Below are positions 1,254-63,840 of a stretch of 64,000 nucleotides of DNA, piece by piece. How positions within the stretch are numbered: position 1 is the first letter of the stretch; every line of letters begins with the position of its first letter. The position numbers and the translations under genes are program-made. Below the pieces are notes generated by a model. That model was not told the origin of the DNA. It was given only the letters and a program-made list of their open reading frames with translations, and ran no database searches. Origin of the DNA: a virus (Duplodnaviria; Heunggongvirae; Uroviricota; Caudoviricetes); IMG/VR virus record IMGVR_UViG_3300021387_000463, positions 107,001 through 171,000 of that record, one strand, 5' to 3'.

Positions 1254-1339
1254 GCTGGGTTCGACTAGTGGTTTAGGTCGCAAGATTTTCAATCTTGTAC
1301 AGTGGTAAACTGTCAGGGGTTCGAATCCCCTACCCAGTA
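1254..1339 (+). tRNA. type-II tRNA-like; anticodon loop uuuucaa (formally UUC; TCA one position out of register)
   Basis: 7-bp acceptor with G1-U72; T arm agggg/ttcgaat/cccct; 3-bp D stem; long variable hairpin acagt/actgt; anticodon identity inconsistent with type II. Confidence 0.4.
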
Positions 1340-1346
1340 CAAAAAT

Positions 1347-3909: not shown

Positions 3910-3979
3910 AGACATGTAGCTCAATGGTTAGAGCCTTGGATTTTACCAAGAGATTAGGGTTCGACTCCCTACGTATCTT
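3910..3979 (+). tRNA. tRNA-like with 6-nt anticodon loop auuuua (UUU or UUA)
   Basis: canonical D arm ta-gctc-aatggtta-gagc and T arm taggg/ttcgact/cccta; anticodon stem cttgg/ccaag encloses only 6 nt; acceptor has 1 mismatch. Confidence 0.35.
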
Positions 3980-4360: not shown

Positions 4361-4487
4361 GGAAACATACAGCAACTATTAAAGGTATAGCATTAAACTG
4401 ATAATTTAAGGGTCGTTGGTTCGAGTCCAACTCACGCTACCAAGGTTGGCGTGATAGCTAAGATGGATAGAATGTTTCCGATTTTTT
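4361..4487 (+). ncRNA. permuted/split tRNA-Ile(GAT) unit inside a TACAGCAA element
   Basis: 5' ggaaacatacagcaa (4361-4375); D-stem 3' strand tagc; anticodon arm ttaaa/ctgataa/tttaa; variable gggtc; T arm gttgg/ttcgagt/ccaac; acceptor 3' tcacgct-a-CCA (4431-4441); 5-nt linker aggtt; acceptor 5' ggcgtga (4447-4453) + ta + D-stem 5' gcta; 3' aatgtttcc gattttttt (4468-4487). No matching 5' acceptor upstream in normal order. Confidence 0.4.
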
Positions 4488-12981: not shown

Positions 12982-13069
12982 GTTTGGATGGCCGAGTGGT
13001 TTAAGGCAGCAGGCTGTTAACCTGCCGTGTGGTTTCGCTACACCATAGGTTCGAATCCTACTCCAAACG
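12982..13069 (+). tRNA. type-II tRNA (Ser/Tyr-like D arm, long variable arm) with anticodon GTT
   Basis: D arm tg-gcc-gagtggtttaa-ggc; anticodon stem gcagg/cctgc with loop ctgttaa; variable hairpin gtgt...acac; acceptor gtttgga/tccaaac. Confidence 0.4.
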
Positions 13070-13075
13070 CAATTA

Positions 13076-16166: not shown

Positions 16167-16293
16167 GGTGACGTAGCTCAGTCGGTAGAGCACTAAAAAA
16201 TCAACGTGTTGCCTCGTGTGCGCAACCCACAGCAAATATTATGATGAATGGCTGTTAACCAAGGGGTCTGTGGTTCGAGTCCACACGTCACCG
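16167..16293 (+). tRNA. oversized tRNA-like gene (127 nt) with ~75-nt insertion after the D arm
   Basis: perfect acceptor ggtgacg/cgtcacc; canonical D arm ta-gctc-agtcggta-gagc and T arm tgtgg/ttcgagt/ccaca; insertion carries gcgcaac-CCACAGCAA and gctgttaacc. Confidence 0.35.
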
Positions 16294-22237: not shown

Positions 22238-22780
22238 CAAAACATAATGGGCTTGAATGGTATAGAACGTTATGCGTCTGGTAAAGGACAAGCAGTGGGC
22301 ATACACTTCAAATAGCAAAAAAAACAAACGCAGAGAACGTAGATTCTCCTGCTTATGAGTACGCTATAGCTGCGTAAGCATGAGCCGAGAGGCTAGGCTC
22401 TTAGGAACAGAACATCCTAGCAAACTTTTTTTAGCTTCGTGCTAGATGGTGGAATCGGTGACTCTAGTCATCCCCCAAGTTTTCCTTGTTTTCTCAAAAT
22501 AAGGTGGCGGATTTTCGACAGCAATGTCAACTTTCCAATTTAAGCTTGTATAATCCTTTATGGGATGGTAATTGTGACGAGGGTTCGAATCCCTCCAGGT
22601 CCACTTAATAATCAGTCAGGGTTGGATGATGAAGTAAACTTTTACAGTAAAGTTATGCTATATTAGGATAAAAGTCATGTATTAATCTGTATAACATACA
22701 TGGAAGGGAATCTTTCATAAGTACATTGAAGAGGTTCGTGTAGCTGATTATTTTATAAAAGAAAAAAAGTTCTTTGAAAA

Positions 22781-23088: not shown

Positions 23089-23332
23089 TGAAAAAAAGTT
23101 CCTAAAAAATTTGGAATTCTCGAAAATTATCTATATCTTTGCAAAGTGAAAAGAAATAAATGAGGAAACTAACAGCAAACATTTAAACATCAAACTGTAA
23201 ATTTGAACAACGTTTAAAAAGTTTCCGTTTTATTATATAACATAGCGGCAGAGTGAAACAGATTACACGCTAGGCTCATAACCTAGAAACACCAAGTGCG
23301 ACTCTTGCGTGCCGCCACTTGATTTGGAAGAT

Positions 23333-23617: not shown

Positions 23618-24440
23618 AACATTGTAGGCTTCGGCTGAAAATGAGGAGTTTGGCTAGCTTTCGTAGCCAAATGAAGGATAATCCAGTGATGGGACTAAAT
23701 GTGATGTGAAATTGACCATAGTAGCATTGCAGATATGTAGGGGCAACCCTATGTATTTCACTGAAAAGCATATGGCACGGTCTACGCTGGGGGTAACACC
23801 CTAGGCGTAGGTTCTCAAGGGCTGAATGTCTTTGAGTGAGTGGTAACACAATAGATTGCCATATGGAACTCGATGCAATAGTCACCAGTTGGCGTGTTGG
23901 GTTCAGTTATATGCTAGTCTCAAGTTGAAATGCTTGAGAACCGTAAGGCTGATAGTATGTAATAGCAATTGGACTTGTGGTGAGTCTTTGTAGGGAGGCG
24001 ATTTCGTGGGTCGTGCTCAAAAGGCACGAATGCGATGGGTCGCACCTCGTCTTCCAATGGTCGTGCAAATTTCCAAAATTTGATTTGAAATATGGTTCAA
24101 ATGTTTATTTAGCAAAAGTGTGCGACACTAGGCAGCTAAAATGCACTTATCCTTCTGCAATATGAAGGGGTTGGGGACTCGCAAGGAATCCAACAAGAGA
24201 GTAAAAGTACTCGTCTGAGTCAACAGGAGGCATCCTGTGAATCCGCAAGAGCTTGGCGAAGAACTGAAATCTATGATGCTGTACCGAAAGGTTTAAACTA
24301 GTAAGTGTTTGGTTGTTTTCGCAAAACCTCCGTGCATGGTGTCTACGGCTATCGTAAGGTAGCGTGTGAACAGCAACGTCCAACCGTTGTGAAATGACAT
24401 CTACAACAAGACAATGTTCTCAGTCTTTTGTTTTTACATA

Positions 24441-24564
24441 GGGAGTTAGCTTAATGGTCAGAGTAATTTTGTTGCGATTTAAGCTACAACACAGTCTCGA
24501 CTTCGGAACAGATTGATGCTTTAACTGATAATGAAAAAATGGTGGTTCGAGTCCATCACTCCCT
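24441..24564 (+). tRNA. oversized tRNA-like gene (124 nt)
   Basis: acceptor gggagtt/cactccc (6/7); T arm ggtgg/ttcgagt/ccatc; body contains ctgataa (Ile-type loop) and a UUCG hairpin. Confidence 0.3.
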
Positions 24565-24725
24565 GCGTACCGTTTTGGGGCACTTTTTGAGTAAACAAAG
24601 TGTTAAACTTTGGCACTAGATAGCTACTAGGTGTTATGGGTTGGAAAGTTTGAATCCCTTGGGGGTTTGTAGAATGTAATGTTTTTAACCAACTGTTTTT
24701 GATACGGCTTAATATTTAATTATAT

Positions 24726-26466: not shown

Positions 26467-26477
26467 CAACATACAAA

Positions 26478-26515
26478 AACGTCATAGGCTCTTGAGCTTG
26501 TGACGTTTTTTTGTT
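26478..26515 (+). terminator. rho-independent terminator
   Basis: cgtcataggctcttgagcttgtgacg hairpin + tttttttg. Confidence 0.5.
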
Positions 26516-26567
26516 TTTTTAATAATAAAAATTTGGTTATCTCAGATTTTTTTTGTATCTTTGCACT

Positions 26568-26813
26568 ATGAAGAAATTTTGGTTTTTGAACATAGTAATA
26601 ATATTTGTTACAGCATTAAGCTTCGTCAGTTGCGATGAGTGCGTTACTGACGATAAAGGTGTTGTTAGATGTGTCGAAACAACTGAGGGACATAATAACT
26701 ATGGTAAGAAATATAAGGTAGATATACGTATCAAATCTGGATACAACACATTTGATTATACTTTATATACCAATAAATCATATCGTGTAGGAGATTCAGT
26801 TTATATCAAATGA
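26568..26813 (+). CDS. small lipoprotein (81 aa)
   Basis: signal peptide + lipobox FVSC; start right after the -7 box. Confidence 0.5.
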   Translation: MKKFWFLNIVIIFVTALSFVSCDECVTDDKGVVRCVETTEGHNNYGKKYKVDIRIKSGYNTFDYTLYTNKSYRVGDSVYIK

Positions 26814-27130
26814 GAAAAGCAATAGATTTAAAAGTAGGTGAGGAAGTGATTTATCTCTATGCACATCAAGAGATAAAGACATCTACTGTTGTTGAGAAGC
26901 CTATAGATAACAATGAAAGACCAAAGTTTATGGTTGGTAGAATTGACCTTGCTAATGGTGATTATCTCATTCGTGGTGCATCGACAATATATGATTCAGT
27001 TGAAGAGGCAAAAGAAGAGTTGATAAAGAAACTTGAGGAACTAATAGAAACATATGAAGGTAAGAAAGATTTTATTGAGGCATCTATTTGTATCTTTAAG
27101 TCAAAAATTAGAAGTCTAAAGGGAGAATAA
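26810..27130 (+). CDS. hypothetical protein (106 aa)
   Basis: ORF, ATGA overlap. Confidence 0.5.
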   Translation: MRKAIDLKVGEEVIYLYAHQEIKTSTVVEKPIDNNERPKFMVGRIDLANGDYLIRGASTIYDSVEEAKEELIKKLEELIETYEGKKDFIEASICIFKSKIRSLKGE

Positions 27131-27141
27131 TCAATTAATAT

Positions 27142-27226
27142 GGGCATATGGCTGAGTGGTCGATAGCGGCAGTCTCTAAAACTGTTATGGCGAAAGTCAT
27201 CGTGGGTTCGAATCCTACTATGCTCA
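27142..27226 (+). tRNA. amber suppressor tRNA, anticodon CTA, type II (Ser/Leu/Tyr-like body)
   Basis: acceptor gggcata/tatgctc all paired; D arm tg-gctg-agtggtcgata-gcgg; anticodon stem gcagt/actgt with loop ctctaaa at the expected position; long variable arm; T arm gtggg/ttcgaat/cctac. Confidence 0.5.
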
Positions 27227-27454
27227 CTACGGCTGGTGTATCCATAGTGGATGCTGAAATAAGTGAGACAGCGCAAGCCATGTAAGAAGTGGCAGATGAA
27301 GCAGCAATGCGGTGCGAGGATTAGTCCCTTGCCCTAGTTCCTTGATGGTTAAGAGGATACCTTCATGGTTGATACAGGTAAACCTAATTTACTATTATGA
27401 TAGAATATCTCAAAAAATTAGAAGCAACGATGTGCAAGCATAAATGGGAGGATT

Positions 27455-27685
27455 ATGGATATGAAGTTGGTAATCCTTTCGTTAAGATGTATCGTTGTAA
27501 AAAGTGTGGGGAAGTTAAAAGAGTTAATGTTGACCCTTGGTGATATGGCAAGCGAAAATAAAAAGAAAAAAGGAAAGAACTCTTATTTGGCAAAAGCCAA
27601 TAAGACTACTGACAAGTTGAAGAGAATTAACTTCTACAACAAGGTGAATAGAGCCGAGAACAAGTGTAAGGTTAATGAGTGTTAA
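27455..27685 (+). CDS. small Lys-rich protein (76 aa); an alternative 37-aa zinc-ribbon frame starts at 27431
   Basis: ORF; frame choice ambiguous. Confidence 0.35.
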   Translation: MDMKLVILSLRCIVVKSVGKLKELMLTLGDMASENKKKKGKNSYLAKANKTTDKLKRINFYNKVNRAENKCKVNEC

Positions 27686-27720
27686 AGTTGAATTAATCAT
27701 TTGGTTAGTTCAACTTTTTT
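27684..27720 (+). terminator. terminator hairpin + T-run, doubling as the spacer of the next promoter
   Basis: agttgaa-ttaatcatttggttag-ttcaact + tttttttcg, then tatctttaca. Confidence 0.45.
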
Positions 27721-27757
27721 TCGTATCTTTACATCAGAAATTTAAAAACAAGGAAAT

Positions 27758-30647: not shown

Positions 30648-30723
30648 TGCGGAGTGGCGCAGTTGGCTAGCGTACTAGGGGTACATGTCCTAGGGGTCAG
30701 TGGTTCGAGTCCACTCTCCGCTA
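30648..30723 (+). tRNA. tRNA-like with unpaired 1-72 (initiator-like); anticodon loop contains acaug (CAT or ACA)
   Basis: T arm agtgg/ttcgagt/ccact perfect; acceptor tgcggag/ctccgct with 1:72 mismatch; tg-gcgc-agttggcta-gcgt D arm; anticodon stem register ambiguous. Confidence 0.35.
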
Positions 30724-30765
30724 CAACTAATATAAAATAAGTAAACTAATATAAAATAAGTAATT

Positions 30766-31149
30766 ATGAATTTTGCAGAAATTGACAGATTAAAGGGTAA
30801 GGATATTACGTTTGAGGAGTTTTACAAAGCACCTTACAAGCAAGATTCATTCTGCCCTATTTACGGATTCAGTTCGAATGGTATGAAGTGCTTCAGTGCT
30901 TTCACTGATAAGGCACAAGATGAACTTGCCAATATAATCAAACTCTTGAATGGTGAGGGTGGCAAAAAATACGACAAGAAAGACGTTGTAGTTGACAAAG
31001 CCGAACTTTATATCAAGGGTAATTTCATCCTTGTTCGTGGATGGGGAGAGTTAACTGGTAATGGAGCTTTGGCTCTACCAATTGACAAGGCATCTAAGAT
31101 ACAGAATGACTTCATTGATTGGATTGTCAAGACAATTACAAAGGATTAA
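30766..31149 (+). CDS. hypothetical protein (127 aa)
   Basis: ORF. Confidence 0.5.
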   Translation: MNFAEIDRLKGKDITFEEFYKAPYKQDSFCPIYGFSSNGMKCFSAFTDKAQDELANIIKLLNGEGGKKYDKKDVVVDKAELYIKGNFILVRGWGELTGNGALALPIDKASKIQNDFIDWIVKTITKD

Positions 31150-31226
31150 CAAGAATTAACGAAAATAATTTGGTTATATCAAATAAATTTCATATCTTTG
31201 CACCGAAATCCAAAAATAAAATAGAT

Positions 31227-31571
31227 ATGAACAACAACAACAATAATAAGATTGATAGAGCTATCGATGTTTTGAGAACTCTTCATAAAGTAGTTTTGGC
31301 TGAAGAAAATGGAAGTGCAGAACACGTTTCTGAATATTTTTCTTCTAAAGAGATTAGTAGAGTAATAAATGAACTTGGAGGGTGTATCGAATCCAATTTG
31401 TCTAATGCTGAAATAGAAGAAGCAGTTAATGACTTTGTTTCAGAGAACAAGGGTAAGACACTTGAAGAACTTCTAAAAATATCTAAGGGTTGGGTTGCTG
31501 ATTCAGACTTAAATAAAGCTGCAAGAAGTGGTTTTTACAATCGTTTGATGAAAAAGTTCCCCAAAAAATAG
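31227..31571 (+). CDS. hypothetical protein (start trimmed to the Met after the promoter)
   Basis: -7 box at ~31190; MNNNNNNKIDRAI. Confidence 0.5.
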   Translation: MNNNNNNKIDRAIDVLRTLHKVVLAEENGSAEHVSEYFSSKEISRVINELGGCIESNLSNAEIEEAVNDFVSENKGKTLEELLKISKGWVADSDLNKAARSGFYNRLMKKFPKK

Positions 31572-31598: not shown

Positions 31599-32432
31599 AT
31601 GAAGAAGTTTTTAACAATGTTTTCATTCGTCATTATGTTGACGATGAGTATGACAATGACCTCTTGTATTGGCTGTACCACAGTTAATGCTGACGAGGAG
31701 ACAGTTCTGATTGACAAGCCTTGGTTCTTGGGTCATGGTGGCGTACAGAATGAGCCAGTTGAGACTGGTCTTGAGTGGATTTGGTGGTCTACTGACACAG
31801 AGACTTTCAAGATTGTACCTTTCAAGCATCAAGTAGACATGGATGACTTGTTCAGTGATGACAATACTCCGTTGGACTTCCATACCATTATCATCACACA
31901 GATTCAGAAGGGTAAGTCACCAATTCTCTTGCAGAACTACGGTACTGATTGGTTCAACACAAACCTTTACAACTACTACTGTAATCTTGTGCGAGACCAT
32001 ATCTCACAGCACAGTCCCTTTGACCTCATGTCCAATCGAGCGATTCTGAATGAGATTGATACAAAGGTACTCAAGCAGATGCGGAGCTATGTAGCAGAGT
32101 TGTCCAAGGAGAAGGAGTTCCCTGTAACGATTCGTCAGGTAACGATTGGTAAGGCAATTCCTAATAAGGAGCAGCTTGCGGAAATGAATAAGACAGCGAA
32201 GGCAGTGCAAGCAAAGCAGACTCAAGAGCGACAGGTTGAGGTTGAGTTAGCTCGTGAGAAAGCTGAACGTCAGAGGGCAAAGGCTGATAAGGCTTATCGA
32301 GAGGAACTTGGTCTTAGTACGCAAGACTTCATTAGTCTGAAGTGGATTGAGACTATTGCAGCTAAGAATGGCGCAAATATTGATGTGATGGTTGGTGGTG
32401 GTTCTACCCCAATGTGGAACATCAAGCATTAA
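31599..32432 (+). CDS. lipoprotein (277 aa) with C-terminal coiled/charged region
   Basis: signal peptide + lipobox MTSC; ...QVEVELAREKAERQRAKADKAYREE. Confidence 0.5.
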   Translation: MKKFLTMFSFVIMLTMSMTMTSCIGCTTVNADEETVLIDKPWFLGHGGVQNEPVETGLEWIWWSTDTETFKIVPFKHQVDMDDLFSDDNTPLDFHTIIITQIQKGKSPILLQNYGTDWFNTNLYNYYCNLVRDHISQHSPFDLMSNRAILNEIDTKVLKQMRSYVAELSKEKEFPVTIRQVTIGKAIPNKEQLAEMNKTAKAVQAKQTQERQVEVELAREKAERQRAKADKAYREELGLSTQDFISLKWIETIAAKNGANIDVMVGGGSTPMWNIKH

Positions 32433-40148: not shown

Positions 40149-40234
40149 TGGCGAGGTGCCAGAGTGGACAATTGGGGCACTCTCATAAGGTGTTAGTTTC
40201 GGCTACCGTTGGTTCGAATCCAACCCTCGCTACC
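40149..40234 (+). tRNA. type-II tRNA with anticodon CAT and encoded CCA
   Basis: acceptor ggcgagg/cctcgct; D arm tg-cca-gagtggacaat-tgg; anticodon stem gcact/ggtgt with loop ctcataa; variable arm; T arm gttgg/ttcgaat/ccaac; a-cca. Confidence 0.4.
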
Positions 40235-40235
40235 A

Positions 40236-53327: not shown

Positions 53328-54803
53328 ATGAATGTTTATAATTTTAAGAAAATTGAGAAATGTTATGTGTTTGGAAACATAGACAGAAACATGGATAGGT
53401 TTATCAAAACCATAACATCTAATATTTCAAAATTTAAAAAAGAAGAGCATCCAAAGGAAATCGAAAGACAAGAGAGACTAAAAAAGCGTGAAGCAGATAG
53501 GCTAGCTAATGATGGGCTTGGTGGAGGTCTTGGTTTACATAATCCATATGACGCTCATTTACAACAGCGTAGAGTTAATAGACGTGACGCTGGTATGGAC
53601 CTAGACCCTTCACCATTTGCATGGAATATTGGGGATAGTGATAAGAAAATGTTTACTAGAAAGGTAGATTCAAGTTACAATGACAGTGTAATCATCGTTA
53701 GTGGTAACTGTGGTATTGGAAATAAGAGCAAGAAGTATTACGAGGAAACATTTAGTAAACTAGATAAGATTCTTGGTGATAACAATTGCTTTGTCTTATT
53801 CGTAAGAGGTAACAACGATAACCCTTCTATCTTCAACAACATGGAAATTGACTTTGAACATATTAAGGCAATTCCAGATTATTCAGTGGTTGCAATGAAG
53901 ACATTCAACTGTCTCTGTATCGGTGGTAGTGTCTCAATGGATAAGGAGTGGAAACTAGCTCAAGAAGAACTTTATGGAAAGAAACTCTATTGGGAGGATG
54001 AAGCCCCTAAATATCATGAAAAGCAACTGAAGGAAATACTTGATGCCTATAACATCAATTGTATTATTACAAGCACTTGTCCGAGCTTTGCATATCCTGG
54101 AACTAATGCTTTTAAGAAAAGCAAGTGGTTCTATCGTGATAAGAAAATTGTTTCTGAATTTTCAAAGGAGAGAAAAATCATGGACAAAATATATGAGCAG
54201 ATTATGGACTCTGAATCAAAACCATATATGTGGATTTATGGCAGATTTAAGATGTATCACACAGACAAGATTAACGATATTGTTTTCTGTTCATTGGCTT
54301 CTTATGGAATGATACAAGTTAACTCTCAACTGAGTGCTTTCTTCGGTGTTGATACATCCAAGACACTTGAGACCAATGCGCACACATTCGACCATATTCT
54401 CAATGAAGAACTAAACGGTGCTGCAAGACTAAGACCACATGAAATCGAAGATGAGGCGATGGAAATTGGTGATGAAGACATTGCAGAAGGTGATGATGAG
54501 GAAATGGCAAACGATGTAGCTGAAGAGGTTGAGGCTGCTCCAAGAGAGAATGTAGCTGCTACTGCAAATACAGTTGAAGAAGCAAGAGAAACACTTGACC
54601 GAATGATTCAAGAAATAAGAGCTGCTGACAACTACACATATGCCGATTATGCTACAATATTTAACCAAGCAAGGAATATGACAGTGGGGGGCAATGACAT
54701 ATACACAATAAGGGCACAAGCTCCTCAAGAACTAAGAGCTGTTACACTCGAAGATATAGACCGAGTTGCACCAGTCATGGGAAACGGAACTAGAAATGGC
54801 TAA
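53328..54803 (+). CDS. hypothetical protein (491 aa), weak phosphoesterase-like features, acidic C-terminus
   Basis: SGNCGIGNKS and VRGNNDNP only loosely resemble P-loop / GNHD motifs. Confidence 0.45.
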   Translation: MNVYNFKKIEKCYVFGNIDRNMDRFIKTITSNISKFKKEEHPKEIERQERLKKREADRLANDGLGGGLGLHNPYDAHLQQRRVNRRDAGMDLDPSPFAWNIGDSDKKMFTRKVDSSYNDSVIIVSGNCGIGNKSKKYYEETFSKLDKILGDNNCFVLFVRGNNDNPSIFNNMEIDFEHIKAIPDYSVVAMKTFNCLCIGGSVSMDKEWKLAQEELYGKKLYWEDEAPKYHEKQLKEILDAYNINCIITSTCPSFAYPGTNAFKKSKWFYRDKKIVSEFSKERKIMDKIYEQIMDSESKPYMWIYGRFKMYHTDKINDIVFCSLASYGMIQVNSQLSAFFGVDTSKTLETNAHTFDHILNEELNGAARLRPHEIEDEAMEIGDEDIAEGDDEEMANDVAEEVEAAPRENVAATANTVEEARETLDRMIQEIRAADNYTYADYATIFNQARNMTVGGNDIYTIRAQAPQELRAVTLEDIDRVAPVMGNGTRNG

Positions 54804-57186: not shown

Positions 57187-58581
57187 ATGGAAATATTCAA
57201 AGACGAAAGAATAAAGAAAGTCTTAGCGAAGATTCAGAATGCCATTAAACTGACTGCCTTTGAGGGGCATGTTTATGTGGTTGGTGGTGCGGTGAGAGAC
57301 GCACTGTTGAACCTTCCAGTCAAGGACTTGGATTTCGTGGTAGAGATACCTAATGGTGGAGTAATGCTTGCCCATCTTCTTGCTTCAAAGGAGAAGTGTT
57401 ATGTGATGGGTAAGAATCCAGTAATATTCGAGACCTATGGTACTGCAAAGCTGAATCTCTTTAAGGATGAAGACCTCAAAGACTTTGACCTTGAATTCGT
57501 TCAGACTAGAAAGGAGCAGTATCACAAGGAGAGCAGAAACCCAGATACAGTGTTTGGTTCAATCGAGGAAGATGCAGCACGTAGGGACTTAACCATTAAC
57601 TCATTGTACTACAATGTTACTGATGGTAAGTTGTACGATTTCAACCAAGGTGTTGATGACTTGGTTAACCAAGTGATTAAGACCCCAACTGACCCAGATG
57701 TTATCTTTGACGATGACCCACTACGTATCTTGAGAGTTATCAGATTCTCTTGCAGATATGGCTGGGGTATCGAGAAGAACACTTGGTTGGGCATGGTTAA
57801 GAATGCACATCGTATCAAGATTATCTCACAAGAGAGAATCACTGATGAGATTTCCAAGATTATAACTGGTCCAAACGCTTCTGTTGGTATCCGCAAGATG
57901 TTGTTCTGTGGCATCTTGAATAGGGTAATGCCAGACATCTACGACTTAACCAACGCATATGAATCAAAGAATCCAATGCTTACCTCATTTGACCACACAA
58001 TGTTAGTTCTTGATAAGGTACAGCCTTATATTGAGAATAGACTTGCTGCATTGTTTCATGATGTAGGTAGAATCGCAACTGAGGGAAATAGGGGTATCTC
58101 TCAAGATTCATTCAGTGCTGATGTTGCTAGCTGTGACTTGAAAGCGATGAAATTCCCAAAGAATATTATCAATTCTGTTGAGAACGCAATCAAATATCAC
58201 AGATTCTTCAGAAACTACGCTGATGGCACTGTTCCACCAGACAAGAAGATAAGAAAGTTTATCAACGAGTGTGGTGACAACATTGGAAACGTGGTTGACT
58301 TGATGAATGCTAACAACTTGTATCAGACCTACGATAAGAAGAAGAGACAAGTATTGGATATTCTGAATAGAATTGAAGAGCTAGATGAGCTTGAAGAGGC
58401 TAAGAACGTTAAGCTGCCTATCGATGGAAAAGATTTAATGGCAGAATTTAATCTTAAAAGTGGCCCTCAGATTGGTATACTCATGGAACACTTGAAAGAG
58501 GCTTATTTCGAGAATCCGAAGATTACCAAGGAAGAGTGCTTCAAGTTGGTTGAGGATAAGATTAAAGTCTTGGCAGTCTAA
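57187..58581 (+). CDS. cca: CCA-adding enzyme (tRNA nucleotidyltransferase, class II) with HD domain
   Basis: VVGGAVRDALLNLPVKDLDFVV head-domain motif; RDLTINSLYY; HD motif LFHDVGR. Confidence 0.7.
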   Translation: MEIFKDERIKKVLAKIQNAIKLTAFEGHVYVVGGAVRDALLNLPVKDLDFVVEIPNGGVMLAHLLASKEKCYVMGKNPVIFETYGTAKLNLFKDEDLKDFDLEFVQTRKEQYHKESRNPDTVFGSIEEDAARRDLTINSLYYNVTDGKLYDFNQGVDDLVNQVIKTPTDPDVIFDDDPLRILRVIRFSCRYGWGIEKNTWLGMVKNAHRIKIISQERITDEISKIITGPNASVGIRKMLFCGILNRVMPDIYDLTNAYESKNPMLTSFDHTMLVLDKVQPYIENRLAALFHDVGRIATEGNRGISQDSFSADVASCDLKAMKFPKNIINSVENAIKYHRFFRNYADGTVPPDKKIRKFINECGDNIGNVVDLMNANNLYQTYDKKKRQVLDILNRIEELDELEEAKNVKLPIDGKDLMAEFNLKSGPQIGILMEHLKEAYFENPKITKEECFKLVEDKIKVLAV

Positions 58582-60515: not shown

Positions 60516-60992
60516 ATGGAGAAATTGACGATAGATGTATTCAGACATTTTAGGTTTTTCTTGAAAAAGAATAAACAGTATGACTTGTTCATGCGAAATT
60601 TCAGAAGACAGCCATTTCAGATTTATCACGTATTTGATTCGAAGATTCCGAATTACATACAGATAATGATGAAAGATTCTGTAGATGGGATTGGAAATCG
60701 ATACTTCAAGGAATTCGGTGCAATGCATCTTATCTTTAGGTCATTTAATTGGTCTGGAGATTGTTGCACAACCAAAACAAATTCGAAGCATTGGGCTACG
60801 GTTGGTCTTAAATGGGCGTTATATTGCATAAGGCATAACATCGACATATGCACAGATGAACGGCTTGGGAGACTTATAGAGTATTGGAATTCTAATGGAT
60901 GGATTAATATTAGCAAGCTATCCTTTGAAGATAAAATAATAGTAAATCAGTTAAAACGAAAATATAATAATTATGGGGTTACAAGTGTATGA
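60516..60992 (+). CDS. hypothetical protein (158 aa)
   Basis: promoter-like tcgtatctttaca upstream. Confidence 0.5.
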   Translation: MEKLTIDVFRHFRFFLKKNKQYDLFMRNFRRQPFQIYHVFDSKIPNYIQIMMKDSVDGIGNRYFKEFGAMHLIFRSFNWSGDCCTTKTNSKHWATVGLKWALYCIRHNIDICTDERLGRLIEYWNSNGWINISKLSFEDKIIVNQLKRKYNNYGVTSV

Positions 60993-61908
60993 TAAGATTG
61001 ATACAATCTATAAAAGATACCAGTTTGATGGTAAGGATTGTCCAAATAAGGATTGGTTAAAGTTCAAGAATAAGATTATTCTTGGTGAGTTCTCAAACAA
61101 GGAGGCTGAGTATCTGTTCAACTGTCTTTGGGAAGCATATAGTAAGTTAGACGGAACAAACTCTAAAATTGCATTCTTCCCCTCAACTAGTGAGATTCGT
61201 GTTGAGGGTAAGACCGAGAAAGCTCAGTCACAGCATGGACAGTTCGAAATGCTTGAGAAGATTGGTGAGCGTATCAAGCCACAGCTTTGCGCAATGTTCC
61301 CAAAGGAGTCAGCAAGGTTTGCTCCAGTTAAAGAGGGAAATAAGGTTCAGTATTATGCAACTAGGGTTGAGTATGCAACGGCATTTAATCCTATAGTTGA
61401 TTTTAAAAAGGCAGAACCTACTGCCAATGGATTGTATGGTGTTCAGCTAGAGGAAGTTCCTATATACATCTACGGTGAGTATTTCGGTACTGGTATTCAG
61501 AAGTATGGTTCTCGCTACATTCAGAATGGTAACGGTTTCCGTGTATTCGACATTAAACAGCAAGGTTGGTGGTTGCCAAAGGAGAATCGTGATGCAATGT
61601 GCAAAGGTCTTGGTCTTGAGACTGTGCCTTTCTTGGGTGTTATGACCTTGCGTGACATTGAGGATATGGTACGTAAGGGCTTCACTACCAAGTTTGAGGG
61701 AGCTGCTGACCCAACAATGCTTGAGGAGGGTATTGTAGCACGTCCCATCATTCCTCTTTACAGTGGCAATGGTAGTTCCACTCGTGTCATCGTTAAGGTG
61801 AAGTACTGTGATTACGTTGAGTATGATGCTGTACGCAAACAATTCTCTGATAAGGAGTTCACTGAGTTCGACACTTGGTATCATGAGAATATCGAAAGTA
61901 AAAAATAA
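60973..61908 (+). CDS. RNA ligase (Rnl2-like ATP-dependent nucleotidyltransferase)
   Basis: motif I KLDGTN (adenylylation lysine, cf. T4 Rnl2 KIHGTN); motif IV-like EEGIVARP; motif V-like RVIVKVKY. Confidence 0.55.
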   Translation: MGLQVYDKIDTIYKRYQFDGKDCPNKDWLKFKNKIILGEFSNKEAEYLFNCLWEAYSKLDGTNSKIAFFPSTSEIRVEGKTEKAQSQHGQFEMLEKIGERIKPQLCAMFPKESARFAPVKEGNKVQYYATRVEYATAFNPIVDFKKAEPTANGLYGVQLEEVPIYIYGEYFGTGIQKYGSRYIQNGNGFRVFDIKQQGWWLPKENRDAMCKGLGLETVPFLGVMTLRDIEDMVRKGFTTKFEGAADPTMLEEGIVARPIIPLYSGNGSSTRVIVKVKYCDYVEYDAVRKQFSDKEFTEFDTWYHENIESKK

Positions 61909-62646: not shown

Positions 62647-63840
62647 ATGATTTATAGTATACTCGATTCAGACCTCTATAAATTTACGATGTCTAATGCT
62701 TATTTTCAGTTGTATCCTGATGCTGAAGGTACGTTTGCTTTTAATGACCGTAACAATGAGGTTTATGACAAGAAGTTCTTGGAAATGCTTCAATTAGAGT
62801 TCGCTCGTCTTTGTGAACTTAAGTTGACAACGGAAGAGTACATGTATGTGTCTCAGATTCGTTTTTTAGCAACCAACTACACTGAGTGGTTGAAGAACTT
62901 TAAGTTTGAGTTTGACAAGATTAAGTTCTGGCTCGATGACGAGGGACATCTTCACATTGAGGTAACTGACAAGATGTATAAGGTAACTCTTTACGAAGTA
63001 CCTATCCTTGCCACAGTTGCCGAGTGTCGTAACAAGTGGCTTGGTGTACACATTGATAATGCAAGGGTGATTGAAATCCTCGATAAGAAGATTGACTTTG
63101 CCAATGAGCATCAGTTGTATTTCTCTGAATTCGGTACAAGACGTAGAGCTTCTGCTGCAAGTCATGACCTCATTGTAAGACGTTTGAAGGAGCGTTGCCC
63201 AATCTATTGCGTTGGTACATCCAATGTGTATTTGGCAATGAAGTATAACATGATGCCTAGTGGAACTTGCGCACATGAGTGGATTATGTTCCACGCTGGT
63301 ATTGGCGGTTTTAAGACTGCTAACCTCACAGCCCTTAACGATTGGATTAAGGTGTATCAAGGTGACTTGGGTATTTCGTTGATTGATACCTATACCACAG
63401 CTTCATATCTCCACACACTTACGCTTAAGCAAGCTAAGTTGCTTGATGGCTTCCGTCAAGACAGTGGTGATGAATACCGCATCGGTAACATGATTATCGA
63501 TAAGCTGCATGAAATGCGCATCGACCCAACAAGCAAGACCATTGTCTTCAGCAATGCGCTTAACTTTGAGAAGTATGCTGAGATTGCTCGTTACTTTAAG
63601 GGACGCATCAAGGTATCCGCTGGTATTGGTACAAACCTTACTTGTGACCTTGGTATTGATGGCTACAAGCCAGCCAATATCGTGATGAAACTCGCTAAAT
63701 GCCGTTACAGTCCTCGTGATTTCTGGGAGTATGTCATCAAGATTTCCGATGACCTTGGAAAGCACATGGGTCGTAAAGACCTATTCGACATTGCTGCCAA
63801 GGAGTTGCACTTTGAAGAGCTTGGTGTTAAAGTAAATTAA
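62647..63840 (+). CDS. pncB: nicotinate phosphoribosyltransferase (NAPRTase, PncB-like)
   Basis: N-terminal ILDSDLYKFTM and C-terminal SAGIGTNLTCD are NAPRTase family hallmarks. Confidence 0.6.
   Translation: MIYSILDSDLYKFTMSNAYFQLYPDAEGTFAFNDRNNEVYDKKFLEMLQLEFARLCELKLTTEEYMYVSQIRFLATNYTEWLKNFKFEFDKIKFWLDDEGHLHIEVTDKMYKVTLYEVPILATVAECRNKWLGVHIDNARVIEILDKKIDFANEHQLYFSEFGTRRRASAASHDLIVRRLKERCPIYCVGTSNVYLAMKYNMMPSGTCAHEWIMFHAGIGGFKTANLTALNDWIKVYQGDLGISLIDTYTTASYLHTLTLKQAKLLDGFRQDSGDEYRIGNMIIDKLHEMRIDPTSKTIVFSNALNFEKYAEIARYFKGRIKVSAGIGTNLTCDLGIDGYKPANIVMKLAKCRYSPRDFWEYVIKISDDLGKHMGRKDLFDIAAKELHFEELGVKVN

What the first reader, a model, noticed from the sequence alone, without database searches (positions are those of the whole stretch)
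27142..27226. Type-II amber suppressor tRNA (anticodon CUA)
This is a well-formed 85-nt tRNA. The acceptor is fully paired, it has a Ser/Leu/Tyr-like D arm and a long variable arm. The anticodon loop cuCUAaa sits at the correct position.

Phage-encoded CUA suppressors are typical of phages that recode UAG (for example in late genes), or that counter hosts and competitors. Several genes in this window end in a conventional TAG (1525-2400, 7132, 9377, 18669). Recoding, if any, must therefore be regional or late, or the tRNA is a weapon or escape device rather than part of a new code.
Basis: seen in the sequence. Interest (0 to 1): 0.75.

Follow-up and report, generated by a model that had tools for sequence, protein, structure and literature searches.

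The report
Conserved amber-suppressor tRNA, huge rumen phage
A roughly 412-kb phage of rumen Bacteroidota carries a real, evolutionarily conserved tRNA that reads the UAG stop codon, yet every gene sampled in about half of the genome uses the ordinary genetic code, so the tRNA does not serve a genome-wide rewritten code and its purpose is unknown.

Summary
ARAGORN and Rfam (57.8 bits) both call an 85/86-nt tRNA with anticodon CUA at 27142-27226/7 (+).

The tRNA is under selection:
- 11 distinct orthologues sit at the same position in at least 12 related ~0.1-0.43 Mb phage contigs.
- The anticodon, A73 and the acceptor stem are fixed, while the D, anticodon and acceptor stems show compensatory changes.

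The body is of the class-II Ser/Tyr type. Its D-arm motif matched only tRNA-Ser in bacterial genomes. The acceptor end is not Ser-like, and 4 of the 11 orthologue sequences have lost the long variable arm. The inserted amino acid is therefore unresolved.

No recoding was found:
- TAG ends about 13% of genes and alternates with TAA/TGA in orthologues.
- About half of the composite genome is 84-100% covered by standard-code ORFs in gene-dense stretches. This includes gp25-like baseplate, tail-fibre (Peptidase_S74) and 2,300-aa genes.

Capsid and lysis genes were not sampled.

The host is probably Bacteroidota, judging from the promoter motif and BACON domains.

Verdict: a new variant of a known kind, a natural suppressor tRNA in a standard-code huge phage. 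Its role is open. Interest is moderate.

The parts
27142..27227 (+). tRNA with anticodon CUA (C34 U35 A36 at 27175-27177). It has a class-II body and discriminator A73 at 27226. No CCA is encoded.
   Evidence: ARAGORN; Rfam RF00005 at 57.8 bits; cloverleaf minimum-free-energy fold. There are 11 distinct orthologues with invariant CUA and A73, and 7 of 21 pairs carry compensatory double changes.
26532..26565 (+). Bacteroidota-type promoter (TTTGG, 19 nt, TATCTTTGCA; -33 TTTG / -7 TAnnTTTG). It heads the transcription unit that contains the tRNA.
   Evidence: The motif occurs 26 times on the + strand and twice on the - strand of the window. About 21 of the + copies have the full bipartite form in front of genes. 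Assigning it to the Bacteroidota promoter consensus rests on established knowledge, not on a test here.
26475..26520 (+). Terminator-like hairpin with a T run, closing the upstream unit.
26553..27130 (+). Two small ORFs of unknown function (26553-26813 and 26810-27130), transcribed ahead of the tRNA.
   Evidence: ORF lists; genes called on the source contig; no Pfam match.
27684..27727 (+). Terminator-like hairpin with a T run, the probable end of the unit.
57187..58581 (+). Phage-encoded CCA-adding enzyme (tRNA nucleotidyltransferase). The tRNA gene lacks CCA, so the mature tRNA needs such an activity.
   Evidence: Pfam PolyA_pol 2.5e-25, PolyA_pol_RNAbd and tRNA_NucTran2_2. The functional link to this tRNA is inferred.

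Best explanation
This is a genuine UAG-decoding (amber-suppressor type) tRNA kept by selection in a clade of ~0.4-Mb phages of rumen and gut Bacteroidota.

Shown here:
- The gene folds as a canonical 7/5 cloverleaf on a class-II Ser/Tyr-type body.
- The anticodon CUA, the discriminator A73 and the acceptor stem G(G/A)GC(A/G)UA are fixed across 11 diverged orthologues, while other stems change by compensation.
- The gene sits in the phage's tRNA island, behind a host-type promoter and between two terminator-like hairpins.
- The phage encodes a CCA-adding enzyme.
- The sampled half of the genome uses the standard code, with TAG as a real stop.

Inferred:
- The transcript is processed, receives CCA, and is charged by a host synthetase. 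The charging enzyme would recognise the conserved acceptor end plus U35/A36 rather than the dispensable long arm. Candidates are Tyr, Lys/Gln or Leu, with Ser possible only for the long-arm forms.
- The charged tRNA competes with RF1 at UAG and gives partial read-through in the infected cell.
- Since the phage's own sampled genes need no UAG decoding, the selected effect probably falls on something else. That could be host or competitor messages, or a few genes not sampled here.
- The phage tolerates the cost because the next in-frame TAA or TGA lies a median of 10 codons downstream of its TAG stops.
For: - Identification.
- Orthologues at the syntenic position in every close relative examined.
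- Covariation: 98.4% of cells are paired, against 36-58% in slid controls. Seven pairs carry double changes, and 0 of 500 shuffles reach the observed covariation score.
- The anticodon is invariant although neighbouring loop positions 32, 33, 37 and 38 vary.
- All tRNAs with this acceptor stem are CUA. No UUA or UCA suppressor occurs among 348 tRNA calls.
- Transcription unit. CCA-adding enzyme.
- Standard code: TAG ends 33 of 246 selected ORFs. A CinA-like gene ends in TAG in the window and in TAA/TGA at the same codon in relatives.
- ORF coverage under code 11 is 0.84-1.00 in gene-dense loci, and treating TAG as sense adds no more than treating TGA as sense.
- Baseplate gp25, Peptidase_S74 tail-fibre, BACON-domain and 2,312-aa genes are intact.
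- Only about 8 unique same-frame ORF pairs split by one TAG occur in 1.53 Mb. Those examined are separate genes with their own start codons.
Against: - Neither expression nor aminoacylation was tested.
- About half of the genome, including capsid, portal, terminase and lysis genes, was not sampled.
- No signature shows that the phage adapts to its own suppressor. The distance to the next TAA/TGA is the same after TAG stops as after TAA or TGA stops (median 10 versus 10 and 9.5 codons; Mann-Whitney p = 0.49). This could mean that suppression is weak or absent.
- Some orthologues have unusual anticodon loops: C33 in L012 and L014; G37 G38 with a C31/A39 mismatch in L007 and L008.
- No target of read-through was identified.
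Confidence: 0.55

Rival explanations
1. Regional recoding. A limited set of genes in the unsampled half of the genome (for example capsid, packaging or the lysis cassette) contains in-frame TAG, and the tRNA is the adaptor that switches them on, as in TAG-recoded Lak, crAss-like and other gut phages.
For: - The preprint 10.1101/2021.08.26.457843 reports recoding concentrated in structural and lysis genes. It also reports suppressor tRNAs encoded in standard-code parts of the genome and Bacteroidota hosts.
- The tRNA is strongly conserved.
- About half of the genome was not seen.
Against: - Structural genes that were sampled are intact in code 11 across 40 or more clade members: the gp25-like baseplate gene, Peptidase_S74 tail fibres, and ORFs of 700 aa, 1,000-1,270 aa and 2,312 aa.
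- TAG ends about 13% of genes and interchanges with TAA/TGA. Heavily recoded phages instead deplete TAG stops.
- The tRNA is not Gln-like.
- The related-looking Jug phages are reported to show no alternative code (PMC12880540). Kinship with them was not tested.
Confidence: 0.15
2. Conflict device. The suppressor is aimed at other genomes. It would extend host proteins that end in UAG. Alternatively, it would insert a 'wrong' residue at the sense-UAG codons of TAG-recoded competitor phages or prophages that share the same Bacteroidota hosts.
For: - The phage itself has no detectable need for UAG decoding.
- TAG-recoded phages are common in the same hosts and habitats.
- The phage also carries its own tmRNA, which could rescue ribosomes stalled after read-through.
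- The body is not of the Gln type used by recoded phages.
Against: - This is purely inferential; no target was identified.
- The phage's own TAG-ended genes would be hit too, and they show no compensating back-up stops.
Confidence: 0.15
3. The RNA does not act as an adaptor on the ribosome. Examples would be a decoy for a tRNA-targeting nuclease or a processing signal for the neighbouring RNA. In that case the CUA triplet is conserved for protein or RNA recognition.
For: - The window encodes an RNA ligase, a metallophosphoesterase and a CCA-adding enzyme, which suggests pressure from tRNA-cleaving defences.
- A conserved 165-nt structured RNA starts right after the tRNA.
- Odd loop variants (C33, G37 G38) occur in some orthologues.
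Against: - All elements of a translating tRNA are conserved: A14, G18 G19, the T loop, a 7/5 acceptor/T helix, A37 A38 in most orthologues, and a conserved discriminator.
- The 165-nt element also follows tRNA-Ile or tRNA-Ala in other genomes, so it does not depend on this tRNA.
Confidence: 0.08
4. A decaying duplicate of a tRNA-Ser or tRNA-Tyr gene that reached CUA by mutation and has no function.
For: - The body is like tRNA-Ser(UGA/CGA), and a single G35U change in a CGA anticodon would give CUA.
- The variable arm is unstable among orthologues.
Against: - 11 diverged orthologues keep CUA, A73 and the acceptor stem, with compensatory stem changes.
- The position is syntenic in relatives down to 66% protein identity in the neighbouring AAA_25 ATPase gene.
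Confidence: 0.04

Closest known systems
supD-type amber suppressor (E. coli serU: tRNA-Ser CGA changed to CUA)
   Same: It shares a class-II body whose D arm (UGGCWGAGUGGUCGAUWGC) is found only in tRNA-Ser among the bacterial hits (77 of 77). It also shares the long variable arm in most copies and the anticodon CUA, one change away from CGA.
   Different: - It is a natural, conserved phage gene, not a laboratory mutant.
- The discriminator is A73, not G73. The acceptor stem is GGGCRUA with G2.U71 and G3-C70, not the GGAGAG type.
- Four of the 11 orthologue sequences lack the long arm, which SerRS needs according to established knowledge.
- Serine identity is therefore doubtful.
supF-type amber suppressor (tRNA-Tyr GUA changed to CUA)
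   Same: It shares A73, G1-C72, U35 A36, the anticodon loop CU-NUA-AA and a class-II body. A phage tRNA-Tyr (Burkholderia phage BcepNY3) is among the nearest GenBank phage tRNAs.
   Different: The exact D-arm motif matched tRNA-Ser and no tRNA-Tyr in the bacterial genome scan. The acceptor stem resembles neither of the phage's own tRNA-Tyr genes. Tyrosine identity was not tested.
Suppressor tRNA(CUA) of TAG-recoded gut phages (Lak, crAss-like, Garnet, Topaz and others; code 15, TAG to Gln)
   Same: Both are phage-encoded, located among standard-coded genes and associated with Bacteroidota hosts in gut or rumen, and both have anticodon CUA.
   Different: - No in-frame TAG was found in about half of the genome, including baseplate and tail-fibre genes.
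- TAG is a working stop (13% of genes).
- The tRNA is not Gln-like: it has G1-C72, A73 and a class-II body.
Suppressor tRNAs carried by standard-code relatives of recoded phages (the Agate example in Borges et al.)
   Same: A suppressor tRNA sits in a genome that still reads as code 11.
   Different: - The published case is a TGA suppressor in one genome, read as a step towards recoding after loss of that stop codon.
- Here the CUA tRNA is old: it is conserved across a diverged clade.
- TAG stops are only mildly under-used (33 TAG against 65 TGA).
allo-tRNAs (Mukai et al. 2017, PMC5389517)
   Same: Both are Ser-like long-arm tRNAs with non-serine or nonsense anticodons found in metagenomes, bacteria and phages (abstract).
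   Different: allo-tRNAs have 8/4 or 9/3 acceptor/T helices. This tRNA is a canonical 7/5.

Membership tests
tRNA (Rfam RF00005), elongator type | A cloverleaf with 7-bp acceptor and 5-bp T stems, the conserved U8, A14, G18 G19 and GUUCRANYC T loop, and a score above the gathering threshold. | tested here: met
   57.8 bits against a gathering score of 29; ARAGORN structure.
Amber suppressor tRNA (functional definition) | Anticodon CUA at positions 34-36 of a 7-nt loop. | tested here: met
   invariant in 11 orthologues.
Amber suppressor tRNA (functional definition) | The tRNA is aminoacylated and inserts an amino acid at UAG in vivo. | not testable with these tools
   This needs a reporter assay, mass spectrometry or acylation assays.
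tRNA-Ser-derived suppressor (supD-like) | A Ser-type D arm and anticodon stem. | tested here: met
   The D-arm motif hit tRNA-Ser in 77 of 77 bacterial tRNAs. Positions 8-44 are near-identical to Bacteroidota tRNA-Ser(UGA).
tRNA-Ser-derived suppressor (supD-like) | A long variable arm, the main SerRS determinant according to established knowledge. | tested here: inconclusive
   It is present in the window copy and 6 other sequences. It is absent in 4 of 11 orthologue sequences: L007/L008 (one shared sequence), L018 and L270.
tRNA-Ser-derived suppressor (supD-like) | G73 and a Ser-type acceptor stem (G2-C71, A3-U70 in E. coli). | tested here: not met
   A73, G2.U71 (A2-U71 in two sequences) and G3-C70 in all orthologues.
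tRNA-Tyr-derived suppressor (supF-like) | A73, G1-C72 and U35 in a class-II body. | tested here: met
   These features are necessary but not specific.
tRNA-Tyr-derived suppressor (supF-like) | Descent from, or closest similarity to, tRNA-Tyr genes. | tested here: not met
   The bacterial scan returned no tRNA-Tyr. The phage's own tRNA-Tyr genes differ in their acceptor and anticodon stems.
Adaptor of a TAG-recoded phage genome (code 15-like) | In-frame TAG codons in conserved genes, and low coding density under code 11 that is restored when TAG is read as sense. | tested here: not met
   Not met in the ~50% of the composite genome that was sampled. The remainder was not sampled.
Adaptor of a TAG-recoded phage genome (code 15-like) | TAG is not used as a terminator. 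| tested here: not met
   33 of 246 ORFs end in TAG. Orthologues swap TAG with TAA or TGA at the same codon.
tRNA-Pyl (ARAGORN's label) | The atypical pyrrolysine tRNA structure (short D loop without G18 G19, 3-nt variable loop, no canonical T loop) with pylS/pylBCD genes nearby. This definition comes from established knowledge. | tested here: not met
   G18 G19 are canonical, the T loop is GGUUCGAAUCC and the variable arm is long. No pyl-like Pfam hit appeared among the window proteins scanned. The label only reflects the anticodon.
allo-tRNA | An 8/4 or 9/3 acceptor/T-stem arrangement. | tested here: not met
   The arrangement is 7/5.

The most novel reading that the evidence does not exclude
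The CUA tRNA may be one product of a lineage-wide radiation in which these phages re-used a class-II (Ser/Tyr-like, long-arm) scaffold for more than ten anticodons: CAU, CUA, UUC, GUU, CUU, UUU, CCA, CUG, UGU, CCU and UCU. Identity would have been re-wired at the acceptor end. In this reading, the CUA member inserts a defined amino acid at UAG for a purpose other than reading the phage's bulk genes. It might act as a mistranslation or read-through weapon against hosts or TAG-recoded competitor phages. It might instead switch on a handful of unsampled late or lysis genes.
Probability: 0.2. Interest if true: 0.8.

Novelty: new variant of a known kind. Interest (0 to 1): 0.5.

Why it matters
Phage suppressor tRNAs are currently read as markers or precursors of stop-codon recoding, and only TAG-to-Gln and TGA-to-Trp reassignments have been reported. 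Here a class-II, non-Gln CUA tRNA is kept by selection across a whole clade of ~0.4-Mb Bacteroidota phages whose sampled genes, structural ones included, use the standard code and still terminate on TAG.

If the tRNA is active, two things follow:
- A suppressor can be maintained long-term without recoding. That calls for another selective reason, such as conflict with hosts or with recoded phages, regulated read-through, or robustness to nonsense mutations.
- Annotation pipelines should not infer code 15 from such a tRNA alone.

The conserved acceptor end together with a dispensable long arm also offers a natural case of identity re-wiring. That could interest genetic-code engineering in Bacteroidota.

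Tried and rejected
- **Tyr-derived (supF-like).** I first judged the tRNA Tyr-derived from its similarity to one phage tRNA-Tyr and from A73. A scan of bacterial genomes with the D-arm motif returned only tRNA-Ser. Descent is therefore better described as a Ser/Tyr-type class-II body, closest to Ser.
- **In-frame TAG candidates from the cross-genome BLAST.** All of them were alternative reading frames of real genes, or the stretch upstream of a start codon.
- **The ORF pair 31119-31571 (TAG) and 31599-32432.** The two are in frame, but the second ORF has its own start and a lipoprotein signal peptide (Band_7). They are separate genes.
- **Back-up stops after TAG.** The window alone hinted at tandem stops in 2 of 12 cases. 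The larger sample showed no difference from TAA- or TGA-ended genes.
- **GenBank phage relatives for a whole-genome test.** There is no close relative. Only distant hits of 26-60% amino-acid identity were found, to 0.63-0.74-Mb uncultured phages and to DnaK genes.
- **A late-promoter motif to sample late genes.** None was evident upstream of the large ORFs.
- **Neighbouring small ORFs.** No informative Pfam hit was found.
- **The 165-nt RNA after the tRNA as a partner of the suppressor.** Rejected, because in other genomes it follows tRNA-Ile or tRNA-Ala.
- **Ala identity through G2.U71.** Considered and set aside, because two orthologues have A2-U71 and bacterial AlaRS needs G3.U70 (established knowledge).

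Full report
**1. The observation**

The sequence at 27142-27227 (+) reads GGGCAUAUGGCUGAGUGGUCGAUAGCGGCAGUCUCUAAAACUGUUAUGGCGAAAGUCAUCGUGGGUUCGAAUCCUACUAUGCUCA(C). Three tools agree on what it is.
- ARAGORN calls a tRNA with anticodon CUA. Its 'tRNA-Pyl' label is only the program's name for that anticodon.
- Rfam's tRNA model scores 57.8 bits against a threshold of 29.
- The minimum-free-energy fold is the cloverleaf.

The anatomy is as follows:
- a 7-bp acceptor stem with a G2.U71 wobble;
- a D arm with A14 and G18 G19;
- the anticodon loop CU-CUA-AA;
- a 5-bp variable stem capped by GAAA;
- a canonical T loop;
- discriminator A73, with no encoded CCA.

**2. Context: a huge phage of Bacteroidota**

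- The window has 37% G+C, and nearly all genes are on the + strand.
- In its first 40 kb, ARAGORN tRNAs, some of them doubtful, plus a tmRNA.
- It also encodes a CCA-adding enzyme, an RNA ligase, a metallophosphoesterase and a nicotinate phosphoribosyltransferase.
- A protein next to the tRNA is encoded on a 412,362-bp ENA contig and in sheep-rumen assemblies.
- IMG/VR and ENA hold relatives of 0.1-0.43 Mb.
- A bipartite motif, TTTGG-N19-TATCTTTGCA, precedes about 21 genes on the + strand. It matches the Bacteroidota -33/-7 promoter consensus (established knowledge).
- BACON domains occur in the putative tail proteins.

Both the motif and the BACON domains point to a Bacteroidota host.

One such promoter (26532-26565) follows a terminator-like hairpin. 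It heads a short unit made of two small ORFs, the CUA tRNA, a conserved non-coding stretch and two small ORFs, closed by another terminator-like hairpin.

**3. The tRNA is under selection**

Every close relative whose syntenic region I fetched carries a CUA tRNA there. One more distant contig, L272 at 66% identity in the neighbouring AAA_25 ATPase gene, has none within 10 kb. There are 11 distinct sequences in at least 12 contigs, from relatives down to 66% identity in that neighbouring gene.

Invariant or nearly invariant features:
- the anticodon CUA and A73;
- G1-C72, G3-C70 and C4-G69;
- the T arm.

Variable features:
- The D stem, the anticodon stem and pair 5-68 change by compensation. 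Seven of 21 pairs carry double changes.
- 98.4% of cells are paired, against 36-58% when partners are slid. None of 500 shuffles reaches the observed covariation score.
- Loop positions 32, 33, 37 and 38 vary, while positions 34-36 never do.

All tRNAs with this acceptor stem are CUA. No UUA or UCA suppressor was found among 348 tRNA calls in the clade. A decaying pseudogene is therefore very unlikely.

**4. Descent and identity**

The nearest GenBank phage tRNAs are tRNA-Ser(UGA) and tRNA-Tyr(GUA). The hits were mostly Bacteroidota and Proteobacteria. Of the 80 hit loci examined, 77 gave a tRNA call at the match, and all 77 are tRNA-Ser: UGA 72, CGA 3, GGA 1, GCU 1. Positions 8-44 of the orthologue in L014 differ from Bacteroidota tRNA-Ser(UGA) almost only in the anticodon loop. 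The body is thus of the class-II Ser/Tyr type and closest to Ser.

The acceptor end, however, is not Ser-like. It has A73 instead of G73, and GGGCRUA instead of GGAGAG. In addition, 4 of the 11 orthologue sequences have a short variable loop. According to established knowledge the long arm is the main SerRS determinant.

In this clade, long-arm tRNAs with Ser-like D arms also carry CAU, UUC, GUU, CUU, UUU, CCA, CUG, UGU, CCU and UCU anticodons. Their discriminators tend to fit the anticodon's own class. The long arm is therefore a habit of the lineage and does not mark amino-acid identity.

The conserved parts are the acceptor end and the anticodon, so they probably carry identity. The candidates below are inferred from E. 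coli identity rules:
- Tyr (A73, G1-C72, U35 A36);
- Lys or Gln (anticodon-driven charging of amber suppressors);
- Leu (A73);
- Ser, for the long-arm forms only.

The amino acid cannot be read from alignments, because no sense UAG was found.

**5. Is TAG recoded?**

*Within the window.* TAG ends 12-15 of about 88 ORFs. Most read-through extensions are short. The one long in-frame case is a separate lipoprotein gene.

*Sampling more of the genome.* I used three routes:
- a scan of IMG/VR with the clade's promoter motif, which gave 71 loci, about 35 of them in the clade;
- a walk leftwards with successive proteins;
- a look-up of a conserved 700-aa protein.

In window-relative coordinates, the composite covers roughly -95 to +72, +81 to +95, +130 to +140 and +186 to +198 kb. 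That is about half of a 412-kb genome, assuming the relatives are syntenic.

*Results.*
- Standard-code ORFs of at least 100 aa cover 0.84-1.00 of gene-dense loci. Reading TAG as sense adds no more than reading TGA as sense.
- The leftward region is a structural module: a gp25-like baseplate gene, a 700-aa protein, ORFs of 2,312 aa and 1,026 aa, Peptidase_S74 tail-fibre proteins of 625 and 1,266 aa, and BACON-domain proteins. All are intact.
- The same holds in 40 diverse clade members.
- In 1.53 Mb of clade sequence, only about 8 unique same-frame ORF pairs are separated by one TAG. Those examined are independent genes with their own starts.
- TAG ends 33 of 246 selected ORFs, or 13%.
- A CinA-like gene ends with TAG in the window and with TAA or TGA at the same codon in five relatives.

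TAG is therefore a real terminator, and wholesale or tail-module recoding is excluded. I did not sample capsid, portal, terminase or lysis genes, so a small recoded island remains possible (about 0.15).

*Back-up stops.* The distance to the next TAA/TGA is the same after TAG stops as after other stops (median 10 codons; p = 0.49). Either read-through is weak, or a 10-codon extension is harmless.

**6. Most likely mechanism**

*Shown:* a conserved CUA tRNA gene in a promoter-to-terminator unit, inside a phage that supplies its own tRNA set, CCA-adding enzyme and tmRNA, and that uses the standard code wherever it was examined.

*Inferred:* the tRNA is matured, charged by a host synthetase through its conserved acceptor end and U35/A36, and competes with RF1 at UAG. 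This would give partial read-through in the infected cell.

The benefit is unknown. The options I rank are:
- general or targeted read-through acting on host or competitor messages;
- decoding of a few unsampled recoded genes;
- a non-adaptor role.

I give 0.55 to the core statement, that this is a functional suppressor in a standard-code phage and not a genome-wide code adaptor.

**7. Comparison with what is known**

Published surveys of gut phages report only TAG-to-Gln and TGA-to-Trp reassignments. In them, suppressor tRNAs are linked to recoding of structural and lysis genes, and one standard-code relative carrying a TGA suppressor was read as a precursor state (10.1101/2021.08.26.457843).

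Jug phages (360-402 kb, hosts Bacteroides and Phocaeicola) are reported to lack alternative codes and to have ruminant relatives (PMC12880540). The 700-aa baseplate-adjacent protein of this clade has homologues of 66% identity or more on contigs of about 400 kb. This hints at kinship with such phages, but I did not test it.

The present tRNA works like supD or supF in form. It is a member of neither family by the acceptor-end and descent criteria. It is not an allo-tRNA (it is 7/5) and not tRNA-Pyl.

**8. Verdict**

This is a real, conserved, natural amber-suppressor-type tRNA on a class-II body with a re-modelled acceptor end, in a standard-code huge phage. It is a new variant of a known kind.

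It is moderately surprising for two reasons: it persists without detectable recoding, and the amino acid it would insert is unclear. Interest is 0.5.

Noticed in passing
window 27228-27392 (+): A non-coding element of about 165 nt starts 1-2 nt after the CUA tRNA. It is highly conserved in 7 relatives: 31 predicted pairs, 10 of them with compensatory changes, and 1-nt indels that rule out coding. There is one copy per genome and no Rfam match at E <= 1. In other genomes the same element directly follows tRNA-Ile(GAU) (L017, L269) or tRNA-Ala(UGC) (L272). It was not found next to the CUA tRNA in L018, L023, L270 or L271. It is a candidate new structured RNA released by tRNA 3' processing.
   Followed up: partly
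window 1254-1340, 12982-13070, 40150-40235; also L054, L062, L083, L102, L008, L032 and other loci: Long-variable-arm (class-II shaped) tRNAs with Ser-like D arms carry anticodons that normally belong to class-I tRNAs. In the window these are UUC, GUU and CAU. In relatives they are CAU (20 calls), CCU, UCU, UGU, CUU, UUU, CCA and CUG. All three window copies pass the Rfam tRNA threshold. This looks like a lineage-wide habit of these phages.
   Followed up: partly
window 22249-22606 (+): A phage-encoded tmRNA (tag peptide AENVDSPAYEYAIAA; Rfam 64.3 bits) lies directly after tRNA-Ile(GAU). Relatives carry it too, with slightly different tags.
   Followed up: no
window, about 21 sites on the + strand (for example 734, 1052, 4323, 11257, 20768, 22805, 26556, 34234, 42483, 63884): A repeated promoter-like motif, AAATTTGG-N19-TATCTTTGCA, lies in front of genes and fits the Bacteroidota -33/-7 consensus. 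In relatives the motif is concentrated around the tRNA island and early genes. No copy was recovered from the ~190 kb of the genome that includes the tail module, apart from its edge.
   Followed up: partly
window 16167-16293 and 24440-24565 (+); weaker hits at 23244-23317 and 4378-4431: Rfam tRNA matches of 126-127 nt that ARAGORN did not call. They may be tRNAs with ~50-nt insertions or introns, or degenerate copies.
   Followed up: no
window 3910-3979, 30648-30724, 32326-32421: Odd ARAGORN calls: a tRNA with a 6-nt anticodon loop ('tt'), a 'tRNA-Cys' with anticodon ACA, and a 'tRNA-Leu(AAG)' that lies inside the Band_7 ORF and has no Rfam support, so it is probably false.
   Followed up: no
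window 53328-54803, 57187-58581, 60973-61908, 62647-63840: A set of tRNA maturation and repair genes (metallophosphoesterase, CCA-adding enzyme, RNA ligase) sits next to a nicotinate phosphoribosyltransferase. This fits pressure from tRNA-cleaving host defences and phage NAD+ salvage.
   Followed up: no
L012:4834-4925, L014:3427-3518, L007:8525-8601, L008:8598-8674: Some orthologues of the CUA tRNA have unusual anticodon loops. L012 and L014 have C33 instead of the near-universal U33. L007 and L008 have G37 G38 with a C31/A39 mismatch, and they also lack the long arm.
   Followed up: no
L240:702-2804 (= P0001), next to a gp25-like baseplate gene in L267: A 700-aa protein of unknown fold is extremely conserved. 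More than 3,200 database proteins match it at E <= 1e-20, and the 120 listed share 66-100% identity with it. Many lie on contigs of 0.23-0.41 Mb from gut and rumen samples. It may link this clade to the published 'Jug' gut phages.
   Followed up: partly
L271:4742-5899: An IS605-type TnpB gene (OrfB_IS605, Cas12f1-like) is inserted in the tRNA island of one relative, about 2 kb upstream of its CUA tRNA.
   Followed up: no
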